From a virus (Duplodnaviria; Heunggongvirae; Uroviricota; Caudoviricetes): a stretch of DNA of 47,283 nucleotides. Position 1 is the stretch's first letter; the number at the start of each line of letters is the position of its first letter. The stretch is taken from positions 1 to 47,283 of the IMG/VR virus record IMGVR_UViG_2897375277_000003. One strand, written 5' to 3'. Shown piece by piece: positions 43,001 to 47,283 of this stretch. The position numbers were made by a program.

Positions 43001-46000
43001 ACGCAAATGCGCATGAATGTTTTCGAAATGGAAGGGTTTCTTCGCGGGAAATGTGTACCGCGAGATCTGAAAGTGAACGAAACAAATGCTGAGTACCTGG
43101 TACGTAAATTCGATGCGCTTGAAGCTAAATGTGCAGCACTGGAAAACAAAATAATACCAGTGTCAGCTGAACTACCACCAGCAAATGAAAGTGTTCTGTT
43201 ATTTGATGCTAACGGAGAAGGCTGGCTGATTGGCTGGCGTTCTCTCTGGTACACCTGGGGACAAAAAGAAACCGGAGAATGGCAGTGGACATTTCAGGTC
43301 GGGGACATTGAAAGCGTCAATATCACTCACTGGGCAGTAATGCCAAAAGCACCGGAGGCTGGAGCATCATGACCACATTTACCGATAAAGAACTGATTAA
43401 AGAAATCAAAGAGCGTATCAGCAGCCTGGAGGTTCGAGACGATATTGAGCGCCGTGCTTATGAAATTGCTCTGGCATCGCTGGAAGAGGAGCCGGTGGCA
43501 TGGCTACATTCAGACAATGGCTTAGGTATTCCAGCAATAACCAGGAGTAAAAACATTGCTGACAGTTGGTTATCAAAGGGCTGGTATGTTCAGCCGCTAT
43601 ATATAGCCAAGCCAGTGCCGGTGGTGCCAGATGCTCGTCCGTCTTTAAATAATGGCATAGTCGGTTTTGATGAAGGCTGGAACGCCTGCCGCGCCACCAT
43701 GCTTCACGGTGTCAAACCTGTAAGCCAGACTTACAAGTTGAACAAGCTGTTTGGCAACTCTCCGGTAACTCCGGATGGTTGGATAAGCTGTAGTGAGCGA
43801 ATGCCGAACGATAAACAATATGTTTGGTGTTGGGGTAAGTCTTACGGCTGGACTGAGTGCGATACCTTCGAAGGGTATTACGATTGTTCGAGAAACAAAT
43901 GGTGGGCAGTTACTGACGATGGGGAAGAACCGGCATCGAAAGTAACCCACTGGATACCGCTACCGGAGCCGCCGCAGGAGGTGAAGTAATGAACAACTTA
44001 ATGACAACAAAACAAGTTGCCGAATTCTGTGGCGTTTCAGTATCGACTGTTCTTCGCTGGAACAGTGTAAACAGGAGAACGGGCCAGAAATACAGGCCTG
44101 ACTTTCCAGATCCTGATATTAAATCATGCCCAAATAAATGGGCATCACACAAGATTTACAGGTTTGCAGGGGTTATTGAGTAATGTGTATTAGCTCTGAC
44201 GTGAACTGACATATCTATGGAACAGAGCTAAACCTAATCCAACTGTCCGATCTACGCCATAAGAAAACATTGCTCTCTTCAGGCTATTCCAATCAATGGG
44301 TAAAGGCCAAAATTGCTACAATATGGGCCATCACTAAGAGTGCCAAACTACAGGAAAAACTTCTCTTCTGCTGATGGCTGTTTTGAACTGAATAAAAATA
44401 CGTAATCCAATACAAATTGACTGATGATATCTGCCAACTGCTGAGCAAAGGGCAGACGTAATGGGGAATATAGACCTTATATGAAAGTTAGAGTATCTTT
44501 AGGGTTAGTAACCCCTTAAGCATTCAGAAGGGACATGCGTGTAAAAGAGAGGTGATGCATGTCGATTGAAGATGAGCCATTTATCGGGCTGCAATGTTGG
44601 ACATAATACCTGGCATTGACAAACTCATTCTCTGTATCCTGAACAGCCATCTTATTGTTTTCTAACATGATGTCACATAGAATGAAGAATCAACTAAACT
44701 GAACATTGAGGAGAGCGAGTAATATTTTATTCTATATAAAAGAAATAAAACGCAAATCGATAGAGCAATCAATATTAAAGTCTGGATTTAGCCAGATTTC
44801 TTATATGAGGTTATAATGAGCAAATATTTGATCAAGCTAGTTTTAACAGCAGTGATATTAATAGCTGTCTTTGTTGGTATATATCTTGCCTACGGAATCG
44901 ATCATGAAACATTCAAATATCTGATAACATGTCTAATGACAGCTATTCCCGTAATCTTTTTAAGTGTGTTTATTAAGCAGTTAACCAATGCGATGACATC
45001 ATTAGCAAAGTCTCTTATGGGAATTGCTCCTAACTCTGTTTCTAAAATACTAGAGGCTGCTATTTTTATTTTAGAAAACAACGAAAAAGTCGTCGAAAAG
45101 TTAATTATCAGGCGCGCAATAAAAATTGTGGTTATGCAGAAACATACTGCAAAAAAAAATAAACATAAAATAAATAAAAGAAAAGAGGCTATAGAAACTG
45201 TAACAGAATTATTTTTGGCCAAATCTAAAATTGAAAACTTACGAGCAAAGTTTATTGCTGTAATAGGGATTATAGTGTTAACAATCGCAAGTCTGCTTTA
45301 TAGTCAGTCATTATTAGCTTGCATAATTCCTATCACATTCTTTATTATTCTTGAAGTAAAAATAAGAGTATTGGAATTTAGAGTAACTAATGGCTTTTTC
45401 GGTAATAATAGACTAGAGGCTTTACAACTTCTGCAGTTCATTACTGACAAGAAAAATAAAGACGACTTTGATAATAAAAATGGAAAAAGAAAAATCTTTA
45501 TTGACCTATTAGAAGTAGAAAACAGTCAAGTGTTTAACTCGGAGAATGGAGTCCTACAATGAATAGCGATATCGCTTCAAGATGGATTGATGCTGGATGT
45601 AGAACCTTAACTTTTTATTACCCAATCAGAAGCGCTGTTGGTTATGTTATTGCCGCATTCCTATGGTTTTTAACCGGCGCATATCCAGGCATAATTACAT
45701 TTCTTGCTATGGAGCCTAATTCTTCTGCGAGAACATCTGTATCTATTTTTGGCTTCATACTGTGCCAGATTAGAACCATATTTGATGCAACAACAGGAAA
45801 GGGGATAAACGAAGAATTACAAAGGGTTGTTAATCTTATTGACAAATCCAACTTATCAGATGTTCAAAAGCGCCTCAAATACATAGAATTGATTGATACT
45901 GAGATAGGCAAACTTAGCAAATCGACAAGTAGCTCGAAAGGTGAAGATAAAAACCCACAAACTGAAGAATGAAATAAAGGAGCCGTAAGGCTCCTTATTA

Positions 46001-47283
46001 TCTATACCTCATGATGTAATCTATGAAACATAAAGTCTGCTCCTTGCTCAAAGTGGGCAGTTAGCCGAGCCAGATCTGGCACAAGCAACAATCGACGCCA
46101 CTCTATCCCACCATGCCTGGTAGGCTTTACGCTGTTCTTCTAGATAATCGCTCTTGTCATAAACTTGCCATACACCTGGCAGTTTATGACCGAGCATTAT
46201 TTCAGCAATATGAGGCGCAGTAAGATCAGAAAAGTTTGTTCGTGCTGTTCGTCTCAAATCATGAAGAGACCAATGAGGAAATTGATACCCCAAACGCCGC
46301 CAAGCGTACTGCATTAAATTGTAAGGCAGCGACTGCAATGATGTCCGACCAACTGGTTCCCTGCTTCCTTCCTTAGTAAAAAGCATATCGGAACCGTTGT
46401 TCATAGAGATAACGTATTTTATAAGCTCTTCAACCGGTTCAATAATGGGCCGCTTTAGCGGTTCGCCTGTTATATCCCCTGTCTTATGTCGTTCTGGTGG
46501 TACAGTCCATATCTTATTAATGAAATCAAAATCGTCCACCTTGGCAGTAATTAGCTCTGAACTACGGCAACCAAAATGAAGCAATAGTTTAATGAAGGCC
46601 CGGTATTTAGGAACCATTCGAGAACCATCGATCGCAGCATAAAGGATTTTAATTTCATCATGTGTCAGAAACCGTTTCTTCTGACCTTTACGGATATCCA
46701 TATCTTTACCCGTGATATCCGACAGCGGGCGAGTTTCAATGAGCTTTCTCTTATACGCCCAGACATGGGCCTGCTTTGCGTTAATTAGCAATCGGTCTGC
46801 TATTGCTGGAGTCTTAGTGCTAAGAGGCTCCAGGACCTCTAACCAATCATGCAATGTAGCTACATCGTGAGGGATACTCCCGATTTTAGAGAACAGGTGC
46901 AGTTCAAATGAGCGGAGTATCTGCTCAGAACCTTTTTTATTTTTTACACAATATGCTGCATACCAGGCACGGATCACAGACTCCACCGTCATGGCTTCAG
47001 TAGCTTTGCGTTTTTCTACCTGCTTGACCAATCGTGGATTGCGGTTTGACTCGAGTTCACCACGAAGACGGATAACTTCTTCTCTGGCCTCTTTTAATCC
47101 AGTTGCCGGGTAAGTTCCGATATCAAGGCGCTCGCCTTTCCCTGCCCATTGATAACGATATTGGAACACTACGCGACCTTTCGGTGATACTCTGACAGAC
47201 AAACCATCACGATCGGATTTAACCAAAACCTTATCACGTTCCTTTCCAACGACTGAACGCAACCACGCATCAGACAACGCCAT

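What the first reader, a model, noticed from the sequence alone, without database searches (positions are those of the whole stretch)
44190..46047. AT-rich two-gene membrane-protein cassette inserted between excisionase and integrase
About 1.8 kb of visibly AT-rich DNA sits between xis (43989..44183) and the convergent int gene, a known hotspot for prophage accessory cargo. It carries a translationally coupled pair: a 248-aa protein with four predicted TM helices and a Lys-rich loop, and a 137-aa membrane protein. Neither matches any family I recognise, including the GtrA/B-type O-antigen genes that sit next to the integrase in the related CPS-53 prophage. A roughly 600-bp non-coding leader precedes it and a bidirectional terminator follows. 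My inference is an uncharacterised superinfection-exclusion, abortive-infection or membrane-acting defence/lysogenic-conversion module.
Basis: partly seen in the sequence, partly recalled or inferred. Interest (0 to 1): 0.75.

Follow-up and report, generated by a model that had tools for sequence, protein, structure and literature searches.

The report
Mobile two-gene membrane cassette in prophage
An AT-rich 1.8-kb block between the excisionase-like gene and the integrase of an E. coli prophage is a self-contained mobile cassette encoding two always-paired inner-membrane proteins of an undescribed family that sits in the cargo/defence slots of many phages, satellites and phage-plasmids, making it a good but untested candidate for a new anti-phage system.

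Summary
Genes A (44816-45562, 248 aa, 4 TM) and B (45559-45972, 137 aa, 1-2 TM) overlap by ATGA. They lie in DNA of 34.5% GC (rest of window 52%), between an excisionase-like HTH gene and a convergent integrase.

The unit is about 44256-46047: a 560-bp upstream region, A, B, a hairpin and a 50-nt tail. The same block, about 77-78% identical and with the same ends, occurs in a Pantoea chromosome and next to a phage-type Ogr/Delta regulator gene.

A and B match nothing in Pfam, NCBIfam, PADLOC 2.0 or PDB, and are not related to RexB, SieA or SieB. An exhaustive profile search finds 559 clusters of A relatives. In all 49 loci examined, including a cyanobacterial MAG, B follows A and overlaps it. 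Both are under purifying selection.

Every mobile-element context is a variable cargo slot. Sister E. coli prophages carry Dsr1 in this same slot. Elsewhere the pair adjoins BstA, PD-T7-5, a NucC-like nuclease or the candidate PDC-S31.

Best reading: a new two-component inner-membrane anti-phage module, either abortive infection or exclusion. This rests on context only. The structure models were too poor to use.

The parts
43989..44183 (+). Excisionase-like HTH gene (64 aa). This is the left conserved flank of the cargo slot and not part of the cassette.
   Evidence: HTH_17 E 6e-5, below Pfam's cut-off. PGAP annotates it as 'helix-turn-helix domain-containing protein'. It is shared with sister prophages.
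44184..44255 (.). Prophage backbone spacer downstream of the HTH gene. The left recombination boundary lies somewhere in about 44196-44275.
   Evidence: Matches 418 E. coli genomes at 75-95% identity. Backbone homology of sister prophages ends at 44196-44219. Cassette homology starts at 44256 or 44261.
44256..44815 (+). Upstream (leader or regulatory) region that travels with the cassette. It is non-coding and its promoter is not mapped.
   Evidence: 64-74% identical to the Pantoea, L011 and L012 copies, with indels that are not multiples of three. This is only slightly above identity at four-fold degenerate sites. No Rfam match. RNAalifold covariation term is -0.94 only.
44816..45562 (+). Gene A: 248-aa inner-membrane protein with four TM segments arranged as two hairpins. 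Predicted topology is N-in and C-in, with a Lys-rich cytoplasmic loop. The conserved core covers residues about 123-230: an amphipathic helix, TM3, TM4 and the motif YRVxxGFFGxNxxEAxQLLxFI...GKRK.
   Evidence: phrog_22270 E 2e-16. Family alignments with invariant R189 and E201 and nearly invariant G193 and G196. dN/dS 0.20-0.28, with the N-half at 0.32-0.67 and the C-half at 0.09-0.21.
45146..45185 (+). A-rich low-complexity tract (A9 run at 45151-45159) inside gene A, encoding the Lys-rich loop. It is a site of in-frame length variation.
   Evidence: Sequence. The close variants P0001-P0003 differ by 2-3-codon indels at this point.
45559..45972 (+). Gene B: 137-aa membrane protein with one strong and one weak TM segment and a helical cytoplasmic C-terminus. 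It is translationally coupled to A by an ATGA overlap.
   Evidence: phrog_17322 E 6e-13. Follows A and overlaps it in 49 of 49 loci. dN/dS 0.08-0.12.
45977..45996 (.). G+C-rich hairpin (8-bp stem, GTAA loop) between the convergent B and int genes. It is terminator-like on both strands and belongs to the cassette.
   Evidence: Conserved in the Pantoea, L011 and L012 copies.
45997..46047 (.). Conserved 50-nt terminal segment of the cassette. The right boundary abuts the int stop codon.
   Evidence: Present in all four DNA-level relatives. In L011 and L012 it is separated from the hairpin by an extra 200 nt or so. Backbone homology of sister prophages resumes at about 46048.
46048..47283 (-). Tyrosine integrase (411 aa). 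This is the right conserved flank of the cargo slot and not part of the cassette.
   Evidence: Pfam PF00589, PF13356 and PF22022. Lies next to yjjG in E. coli IR53017.

Best explanation
Window 44256-46047 is a self-contained, horizontally mobile accessory cassette, a 'moron'. It comprises its own upstream region, two translationally coupled genes and its own hairpin terminator. It sits in the variable cargo slot between the end of the early-left operon (excisionase-like gene) and the integrase of a CPS-53/KplE1-related prophage.

Shown:
- A (4 TM) and B (1-2 TM) are real, selectively constrained inner-membrane proteins.
- They belong to a large, undescribed two-gene family and are always adjacent and overlapping.
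- The family lives almost only in the cargo or defence slots of temperate phages, satellite-like islands and phage-plasmids.

Inferred:
- A and B form one inner-membrane complex, with nearly all of their conserved surface facing the cytoplasm.
- The complex protects the lysogen against other phages.
- The mechanism I consider most likely is abortive-infection-like. B holds A inactive. A cytoplasmic or inner-membrane cue of infection, possibly read by A's fast-evolving N-terminal half, releases the conserved TM3-TM4 hairpin and C-terminal motif of A. This permeabilises or depolarises the membrane and stops phage growth.

I put 'anti-phage protection by any membrane mechanism' at about 0.55, and this specific abortive-infection version at about 0.35.
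For: - Anatomy and coupling.
- Discrete unit: the same ends recur in three unrelated contexts at about 77-78% DNA identity, namely the E. coli prophage, the Pantoea dispersa chromosome and the Ogr/AlpA context L011.
- Foreign composition: 34.5% GC against 52.1%.
- Obligate pairing: 49 of 49 loci, including a cyanobacterial MAG and remote subfamilies.
- Family size: 559 clusters at 50% identity have E<=1e-3.
- Purifying selection, with a faster-evolving N-half of A.
- Cargo-slot contexts: the xis-int slot is polymorphic, and Dsr1 (PADLOC E=0) occupies it in a sister prophage.
- Defence neighbours: BstA, E 4e-116; PD-T7-5, E 7e-131; a DUF6602/NucC-like nuclease, E 5e-39; DUF2971, which is candidate PDC-S31.
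- Other slots: the gpS-gpV gap of P2-like phages and the end of a P2/HP1-like prophage.
- In SSU5-like phage-plasmids the pair is accessory. Gene B is detected in 74 plasmids, against 797 that carry the conserved neighbouring gene 034. It is also exchanged independently of the backbone.
- Literature: unknown genes in such hotspots often prove defensive, and TM proteins in known systems are regarded as Abi effectors (PMC9122126; preprint 10.64898/2026.02.27.708500).
Against: - There is no phenotype. All functional evidence is guilt by association.
- No homology to any validated system.
- No recognisable sensor, nuclease, ATPase or nucleotide-binding domain.
- The structure models have low confidence (pLDDT 58 and 44) and gave no fold matches.
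- The TM segments are not notably polar.
- Cargo slots also carry non-defence morons.
- The Pantoea copy sits among metabolic genes with no mobile-element genes nearby.
- Most alternative cargo alleles in the same E. coli slot are themselves unannotated.
- The pair is rare, present in 2 of 5426 complete E. coli genomes.
Confidence: 0.35

Rival explanations
1. Superinfection exclusion without cell death. The A/B inner-membrane complex blocks genome entry or ejection-complex assembly of incoming phages, including relatives of the carrier, in the manner of T4 Imm or P22 SieA.
For: - Small inner-membrane proteins in a prophage cargo slot.
- The same mobile-element contexts as listed for the best explanation.
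- In SSU5-like phage-plasmids the alleles are highly diverged and swapped between backbones, as expected of a specificity determinant in phage-phage competition.
- The SSU5 cargo region also carries a Cor exclusion gene a few kb upstream.
Against: - Predicted periplasmic exposure is tiny: loops of about 8 and 3 residues in A and about 10 in B.
- All strongly conserved motifs face the cytoplasm.
- No homology to SieA or SieB.
- A family spanning Enterobacterales to cyanobacteria is hard to reconcile with recognition of one particular phage ejection machinery.
Confidence: 0.2
2. A membrane toxin-antitoxin (addiction) pair whose main role is to stabilise the mobile element that carries it. One partner is a membrane-damaging toxin and the other its cognate neutraliser.
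For: - Strict two-gene overlap and co-inheritance.
- Location directly after the parA partition genes in SSU5-like phage-plasmids.
- Occurrence as a lone chromosomal islet in Pantoea.
- A SocA/Panacea-type gene lies nearby in L008.
Against: - No similarity to known toxin-antitoxin families in Pfam or PADLOC.
- Only about 9% of plasmids with the same par backbone carry it.
- Integrated prophages gain little from addiction.
- Toxin-antitoxin function and abortive infection are not exclusive, so this rival overlaps the best explanation.
Confidence: 0.12
3. A lysogenic-conversion or membrane-physiology module unrelated to phages, for example stress tolerance, small-solute handling or modulation of a host membrane machine, carried as a fitness moron.
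For: - The Pantoea copy lies between transporter and metabolic genes, with no mobile-element genes within 8 kb.
- Prophage cargo slots do carry such genes; the Gtr genes of CPS-53 and P22 are examples from established knowledge (P22 map).
- No defence-type domain was found.
Against: - There are no enzyme or transporter signatures.
- Both proteins are small and offer too few TM segments for a typical transporter.
- Repeated adjacency to proven defence genes and allelism with Dsr1.
- A rapidly evolving N-half of A and cassette swapping fit conflict better than housekeeping.
Confidence: 0.18
4. A regulator of the carrier phage's own lysis or lysis timing, of the holin/antiholin type.
For: - Two small membrane proteins with cytoplasmic tails.
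- In SSU5 the pair lies about 3 kb downstream of the holin-endolysin-spanin genes.
Against: - No match to any Pfam holin family among 99 members.
- It is present in satellite-like islands and in a chromosomal islet that have no lysis genes.
- In this window it lies at the opposite end of the prophage from the late genes.
- It is accessory rather than core.
Confidence: 0.05
5. Non-functional AT-rich filler with chance ORFs.
For: Low GC favours long ORFs with hydrophobic and Lys-rich products.
Against: - dN/dS is 0.08-0.28 and the codon-position identity pattern is that of coding sequence.
- Profile matches exist across phyla with conserved motifs.
- Good Shine-Dalgarno sequences and ATGA coupling.
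Confidence: 0.02

Closest known systems
Lambda RexAB (abortive infection)
   Same: A two-gene prophage cargo module expressed in lysogens. One small multi-TM inner-membrane protein is thought to depolarise the membrane under the control of a partner. The positional logic is that of a moron.
   Different: RexA is cytosolic, whereas here both partners are membrane proteins. There is no sequence relationship: hhalign probability is 0.1% for both A and B against RexB. Gene order and sizes also differ.
P22 SieA / SieB and T4 Imm (superinfection exclusion)
   Same: Small inner-membrane proteins encoded by accessory genes of temperate or virulent phages that protect against other phages.
   Different: These are single-gene systems. 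No homology to SieA or SieB (probability below 2%). T4 Imm was not compared. The A/B conserved parts are cytoplasmic, not periplasmic.
Defence-hotspot cargo of P2/P4-like elements and other prophages (Rousset et al. 2022, PMC9122126)
   Same: Variable cassettes sit between conserved flanks. Known defence systems such as Dsr1, BstA and PD-T7-5 alternate with or adjoin unknown genes. TM proteins in these systems are regarded as abortive-infection effectors.
   Different: The pair is not among the systems described in the main text of that paper or of the 2026 preprint. Their supplementary tables were not searched. The element carrying it beside PD-T7-5 has int at the far end, so it is not a canonical psu-int P4 hotspot.
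PHROG families phrog_22270 and phrog_17322
   Same: A (residues 114-228) and B (2-122) match these viral protein families, with E 2e-16 and 6e-13. SSU5_035 and SSU5_036 are the only relatives in a cultured, annotated phage.
   Different: Both families are annotated 'unknown function'. No pairing or context had been recorded for them in the libraries at hand.
Kiwi (KwaA 4-TM + KwaB) and TM effectors of CBASS, Pycsar and retrons
   Same: Defence systems whose executing component is a small 2-4-TM protein.
   Different: No PADLOC model matches A or B. Only scattered single hits, with best E-values from 1e-4 to 7e-3, appear among 99 family members. There is no cyclase, reverse transcriptase or DUF4868 partner.

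Membership tests
Moron / independent accessory transcription unit in a prophage (Hendrix-type definition) | Present or absent between conserved genes of related phages | tested here: met
   More than 1000 E. coli genomes share both flanks at 94-96% identity but carry other inserts. Only 2 have this one.
Moron / independent accessory transcription unit in a prophage (Hendrix-type definition) | Base composition differs from the surrounding phage genome | tested here: met
   34.5% GC against 52.1%.
Moron / independent accessory transcription unit in a prophage (Hendrix-type definition) | Own promoter and own terminator | tested here: inconclusive
   The hairpin terminator is present and travels with the cassette. 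The 560-bp upstream region also travels with it. No convincing promoter was mapped: the only 10-of-12 consensus match overlaps the ATG of A.
Defence-hotspot cargo (variable slot holding anti-phage systems) | The same slot in related elements holds validated defence systems | tested here: met
   Dsr1 (PADLOC E=0) sits in the xis-int slot of E. coli CUVET16-559.
Defence-hotspot cargo (variable slot holding anti-phage systems) | Family members are recurrently adjacent to known defence genes in other genomes | tested here: met
   BstA, PD-T7-5, a NucC/PD-DExK-like nuclease and PDC-S31. This is qualitative. No genome-wide enrichment statistic was computed.
Defence-hotspot cargo (variable slot holding anti-phage systems) | Confers resistance to phage infection | not testable with these tools
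   Needs plaque and liquid-infection assays.
RexAB | Sequence or profile homology to RexA or RexB | tested here: not met
   hhalign probability 0.1% for A and for B against RexB. RexA was not compared. PADLOC has no hit.
SieA / SieB | Sequence or profile homology | tested here: not met
   hhalign probabilities 0.2-1.6%.
GtrABC O-antigen conversion | GtrA flippase-like and GtrB glycosyltransferase domains | tested here: not met
   No Pfam or NCBIfam match for A, B or 99 family members.
Holin / antiholin | Match to a described holin family; linkage to an endolysin | tested here: not met
   No holin Pfam hit. There is no endolysin next to the pair in the window or in most contexts.
Toxin-antitoxin pair | Two small adjacent co-transcribed genes kept together | tested here: met
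   Overlapping in 49 of 49 loci.
Toxin-antitoxin pair | One product is toxic and is neutralised by the other | not testable with these tools
   Needs separate expression of A and of B.
PHROGs phrog_22270 (A) and phrog_17322 (B) | Significant profile match | tested here: met
   E 2.1e-16 (A residues 114-228) and 5.8e-13 (B residues 2-122).

The most novel reading that the evidence does not exclude
A and B define a previously unrecognised and widespread two-component inner-membrane anti-phage system. It has at least 559 A-clusters and reaches from Enterobacterales to cyanobacteria. It has no enzymatic domain and is absent from every defence database consulted here. It moves between prophages, satellites, phage-plasmids and chromosomes as a complete 1.8-kb unit with its own regulatory region. 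It acts through a new A-B membrane switch built around the conserved YRVxKGYFGxNxxEA cytoplasmic motif.
Probability: 0.4. Interest if true: 0.7.

Novelty: new variant of a known kind. Interest (0 to 1): 0.55.

Why it matters
If the pair is defensive, it adds a new protein family to the anti-phage repertoire, one made only of two small membrane proteins. Its core motif is sharply conserved (R189, G193, G196, E201 in A; D4, P22, R24, G28 in B), which gives ready targets for mutagenesis. It also offers a natural set of diverged alleles for mapping specificity.

The analysis flags three little-noted cargo slots as places to mine further systems:
- the xis-int gap of yjjG-site prophages;
- the gap between genes 034 and 038 of SSU5-like phage-plasmids;
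- the gpS-gpV gap of P2-like phages.

Five unannotated sister alleles in the same E. coli slot are further candidates. If the pair is not defensive, it is still an uncharted, strictly paired membrane family carried by many clinically common Klebsiella and Enterobacter phage-plasmids.

Tried and rejected
- Structure route. AlphaFold2 of A with an 18-sequence alignment gave mean pLDDT 58, with only the core 130-210 at about 75. B with 4 sequences gave pLDDT 44. Foldseek of the A model against BFVD and PDB returned nothing with E<=0.001. The afdb50 library was unavailable. I draw no fold conclusion.
- Sequence libraries. Pfam, PADLOC and NCBIfam gave no match for A or B, and PDB profile searches with the A- and B-family alignments gave nothing significant. 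Pfam and PADLOC scans of 99 distant family members gave only scattered single weak hits.
- Non-coding RNA in the leader. No Rfam hit. RNAalifold on four variants gave a covariation term of only -0.94, and the long-range 11-bp helix has no compensatory changes. Leader identity (0.70-0.74) barely exceeds identity at four-fold degenerate sites (0.59-0.70). I rejected a structured-RNA component.
- Hidden third gene in the leader. Indels are not multiples of three and no ORF is conserved. Rejected.
- Terminal inverted or direct repeats that would explain mobility. None found.
- The pair as a core part of the SSU5 partition operon. Rejected, because only 74 of 797 plasmids with the conserved neighbouring gene carry it, and pHCM2 lacks it.
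- Homology to RexB, SieA or SieB. Rejected.
- Literature. Searching the accession numbers returned nothing. None of the newly named P4-hotspot systems in the 2026 preprint is a pair of membrane proteins.
- Locus scans. Two scans failed because the alignments were too diverse. The species-representative genome scan found only 3 loci, so the phyletic breadth of the remote subfamilies remains poorly sampled.
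Full report
1. WHAT IS THERE

A runs 44816..45562 (+, 248 aa) and B runs 45559..45972 (+, 137 aa). The stop of A and the start of B overlap as ATGA, and each gene has a GAGG/GGAG ribosome-binding site.

The left flank is a 64-aa HTH protein (43989..44183). It resembles excisionase/AlpA-type HTH_17 proteins but scores below Pfam's cut-off. 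The right flank is a convergent tyrosine integrase (46048..47283) with arm-binding, central and catalytic domains.

GC falls to 0.28-0.38 over the genes. The block 44256-46047 is 34.5% GC, against 52.1% for the rest of the window.

A hairpin (AAGGAGCC-GTAA-GGCTCCTT, 45977-45996) lies between the convergent genes. The scan calls it terminator-like on both strands, and the T-run is better on the int strand.

Hydropathy gives four TM segments in A (4-22, 35-53, 144-162, 165-183), arranged as two hairpins. The loop 55-143 holds 18 K/R against 8 D/E, so the positive-inside rule puts the N-terminus, this loop and the C-terminal tail in the cytoplasm. B has one strong (30-48) and one weak (57-75) hydrophobic segment and a helical, charged C-terminus. 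Predicted periplasmic exposure of both proteins is a few residues only.

2. THEY ARE REAL GENES AND ONE MOBILE UNIT

The cassette DNA is found in only 2 of 5426 complete E. coli genomes. In both it lies in a prophage next to yjjG, and both proteins are annotated 'hypothetical protein'.

BLASTN against loci fetched through protein homologues gave three DNA-level relatives:
- The Pantoea dispersa chromosome matches window 44256..46047 at 78% identity.
- L011, which has AlpA and Ogr/Delta genes upstream and a DUF6602 gene downstream, matches 44261..45996 and then 45997..46050.
- L012 is similar.

The unit therefore consists of the 560-bp upstream region, A, B, the hairpin and a conserved 50-nt tail. 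In L011 and L012 the tail is separated from the hairpin by about 200 extra nucleotides.

The first 40-90 nt after the HTH gene are prophage backbone, shared with about 420 E. coli genomes. Backbone homology resumes at the int stop codon. I found no terminal repeats, so how the unit moves is unknown.

The upstream region is non-coding, because its indels are not multiples of three. It has no Rfam match and no convincing covariation. It is only slightly more conserved than four-fold degenerate sites, 0.70-0.74 against 0.59-0.70. I read it as a regulatory region under weak constraint, not as an RNA component.

Between the E. coli and the related copies, dN/dS is 0.20-0.28 for A and 0.08-0.12 for B. 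Within A, the N-half is at 0.32-0.67 and the C-half at 0.09-0.21. These values rule out chance ORFs.

3. THE FAMILY

Pfam, PADLOC 2.0 and NCBIfam have no family for either protein. PHROGs does hold both, as phrog_22270 and phrog_17322, with unknown function.

Word-indexed searches found few relatives. An exhaustive HMMER search with an 18-sequence A profile found far more:
- 559 clusters at 50% identity with E<=1e-3;
- 117 clusters with E<=1e-10.

Among 99 of these, no Pfam or PADLOC family recurs. All named members are 'hypothetical protein'. PDB sequence-profile searches found nothing significant.

Alignments show a variable N-terminal part with 0 to several TM segments and charged helices. 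This is followed by a conserved core:
- an amphipathic helix (K..TVV.LFLL.EK);
- the TM3-TM4 hairpin;
- the motif E.K..VL.YR(V/I)..G(Y/F)FG.N..EA.QL(L/I).FI..N.D..D...GG.RKI.

R189 and E201 are invariant, and G193 and G196 nearly so. B conserves D4, P22, R24, G28, G65, E85 and a C-terminal LS..QKR helix.

In every locus examined, a B homologue follows A and overlaps it. That is 49 loci counting the window. They include a Leptolyngbyaceae MAG (A E 1e-26, B E 5e-8) and two remote metagenomic or viral contigs. Such strict coupling argues that the two proteins work as one complex. That step is inference.

4. WHERE THE PAIR LIVES

(a) This window: the xis-int gap of a CPS-53-like prophage.
- More than 1000 E. 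coli genomes share both flanks at 94-96% identity but carry other inserts.
- One sister prophage carries Dsr1.
- Others carry unannotated cargo of 239 aa, 62+183 aa, 515 aa, 160+150 aa or 331 aa, the last in UTI89.

(b) L008 and L013-15: the pair lies next to a convergent BstA gene (PADLOC E 4e-116), with a SocA/Panacea gene and a P22-tailspike head-binding fragment nearby.

(c) L011: the pair lies next to a DUF6602 protein that matches the PD-DExK and NucC effector models.

(d) Enterobacter and Klebsiella aerogenes islands with int, AlpA and a D5-type primase: the pair is followed directly by PD-T7-5 (E 7e-131) at the distal end of the island.

(e) The extreme end of a P2/HP1-like Klebsiella oxytoca prophage.

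(f) P2-like phages: between gpS and gpV.

(g) SSU5-like phage-plasmids: between gene 034 (after parA) and gene 038, often with DUF2971, which matches the PADLOC candidate PDC-S31.
- The pair is accessory here, not core. The neighbouring gene 034 is in 797 PLSDB plasmids and B in only 74. pHCM2 has other cargo in the slot.
- The pair has its own history. Against SSU5, A and B show dS 1.6-2.7 where the flanking genes show 0.4-1.5. In pJN2-26 the pattern is reversed.

(h) A lone islet in the Pantoea dispersa chromosome, between metabolic genes.

(i) Contigs with resolvases, or with a GemA-like gene and an AAA_22 ATPase.

Published work supports reading such slots as defence reservoirs and TM proteins as abortive-infection effectors (PMC9122126). 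The main text of that paper and of a 2026 preprint describes no system that corresponds to this pair. Their supplementary tables were not searched.

5. HOW IT MOST LIKELY WORKS

Shown: two constrained inner-membrane proteins, obligately paired, mobile as a unit, living in cargo or defence slots.

Inferred: they form a complex whose conserved surfaces face the cytoplasm, and this complex protects the host from phages.

The periplasmic loops are minimal and the conserved motifs are cytoplasmic. I therefore favour an abortive-infection-like switch, in which B restrains A and an infection cue frees A's TM hairpin to damage the membrane. I rank this above a periplasm-facing block to DNA entry. The faster-evolving N-half of A is a candidate specificity element.

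My estimates are:
- about 0.55 for 'anti-phage by some membrane mechanism', made up of 0.35 for the abortive-infection version and 0.20 for non-lethal exclusion;
- 0.12 for toxin-antitoxin/addiction as the main role;
- 0.18 for a phage-unrelated membrane function;
- 0.05 for lysis control;
- 0.02 for no function.

6. COMPARISON WITH KNOWN SYSTEMS

In function the closest analogues are lambda RexAB, P22 SieA/SieB, T4 Imm, and TM-effector defence systems such as Kiwi and the CBASS, Pycsar and retron TM effectors. Membership fails for each one tested:
- hhalign probabilities against RexB, SieA and SieB are 0.1-1.6%;
- PADLOC models do not match;
- no Gtr or holin domains are present.

The pair does meet the descriptive criteria of a moron, except that its promoter is unmapped. 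It also meets those of hotspot cargo.

7. WHAT LED NOWHERE

The structure models were too poor to use (pLDDT 58 for A and 44 for B), and fold searches with the A model were empty. The leader-RNA idea, a hidden third gene, terminal repeats and a role in partition were all examined and dropped.

8. VERDICT

The pair is an undescribed two-gene membrane family and a good candidate for a new anti-phage system. It is a new variant within a known kind, namely prophage- and hotspot-encoded membrane-acting protection modules. Interest 0.55. The finding is not startling to a specialist, because unknown genes in such slots often turn out to be defensive. It is, however, a well-delimited and directly testable lead, with clear mutational targets and several by-product candidates.

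Noticed in passing
window 45146-45185: An A-rich low-complexity run (A9 at 45151-45159) encodes the Lys-rich loop of A. Near-identical E. coli variants differ only by in-frame 2-3-codon indels at this point, so the tract looks prone to slippage and could vary loop length.
   Followed up: partly
window 45997-46047; L011 4654-4707; L012 1956-2000: A 50-nt segment after the hairpin is conserved in all four DNA-level relatives and ends exactly at the int stop codon. L011 and L012 have about 200 extra nt between the hairpin and this segment. Its role (recombination site, or second terminator element) is unknown.
   Followed up: partly
window 44373-44383 and 44641-44651: A 10-of-11-nt inverted repeat (GATGGCTGTTT / GAACAGCCATC), about 260 nt apart in the upstream region, is retained in all four variants but without compensatory changes.
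   Followed up: partly
L046 6099-6818; L048 907-1751; L049 817-2364; L050 680-1656; L051 958-1953: Sister prophages at the same yjjG-side site carry at least five other unannotated cargo alleles in the xis-int slot (239 aa; 62+183 aa; 515 aa; 160+150 aa; 331 aa in UTI89). None has a Pfam or PADLOC match. Because they are allelic with Dsr1, they are further candidate defence genes.
   Followed up: partly
L002 4436-6836; L056 3438-6002: SSU5-like phage-plasmids have a variable cargo slot between gene 034 (downstream of parA) and gene 038. It holds A/B with or without DUF2971 (PADLOC candidate PDC-S31), or DUF2971 plus a 351-aa ORF in pHCM2.
   Followed up: partly
L045 5250-8020; L044 5250-8020: In P2-like phages a diverged A/B pair is inserted between the tail-completion gene gpS and the baseplate spike gene gpV. 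This is the accessory position that orf30 occupies in P2 itself (the P2 detail is from memory and was not checked).
   Followed up: no
window 44812-44817: The best sigma-70-like match in the region (TAGCCA-17-TATAAT) has its -10 element overlapping the ATG of A, so it cannot be A's promoter. The real promoter in the 560-bp upstream region is unmapped.
   Followed up: no
L028 9103-10227; L029 and L030 same coordinates: Enterobacter and Klebsiella aerogenes integrative islands (int, AlpA, D5-type primase) carry the pair and PD-T7-5 together at the end opposite int. This resembles a PICI-like distal cargo region rather than the canonical P4 psu-int hotspot.
   Followed up: partly
window 43369-43989 vs L001 7186-7806: The DUF551 gene is an intact 206-aa ORF in the window. 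RefSeq annotates it as two partial pseudogene fragments in the near-identical IR53017 record, which is probably an annotation artefact.
   Followed up: no
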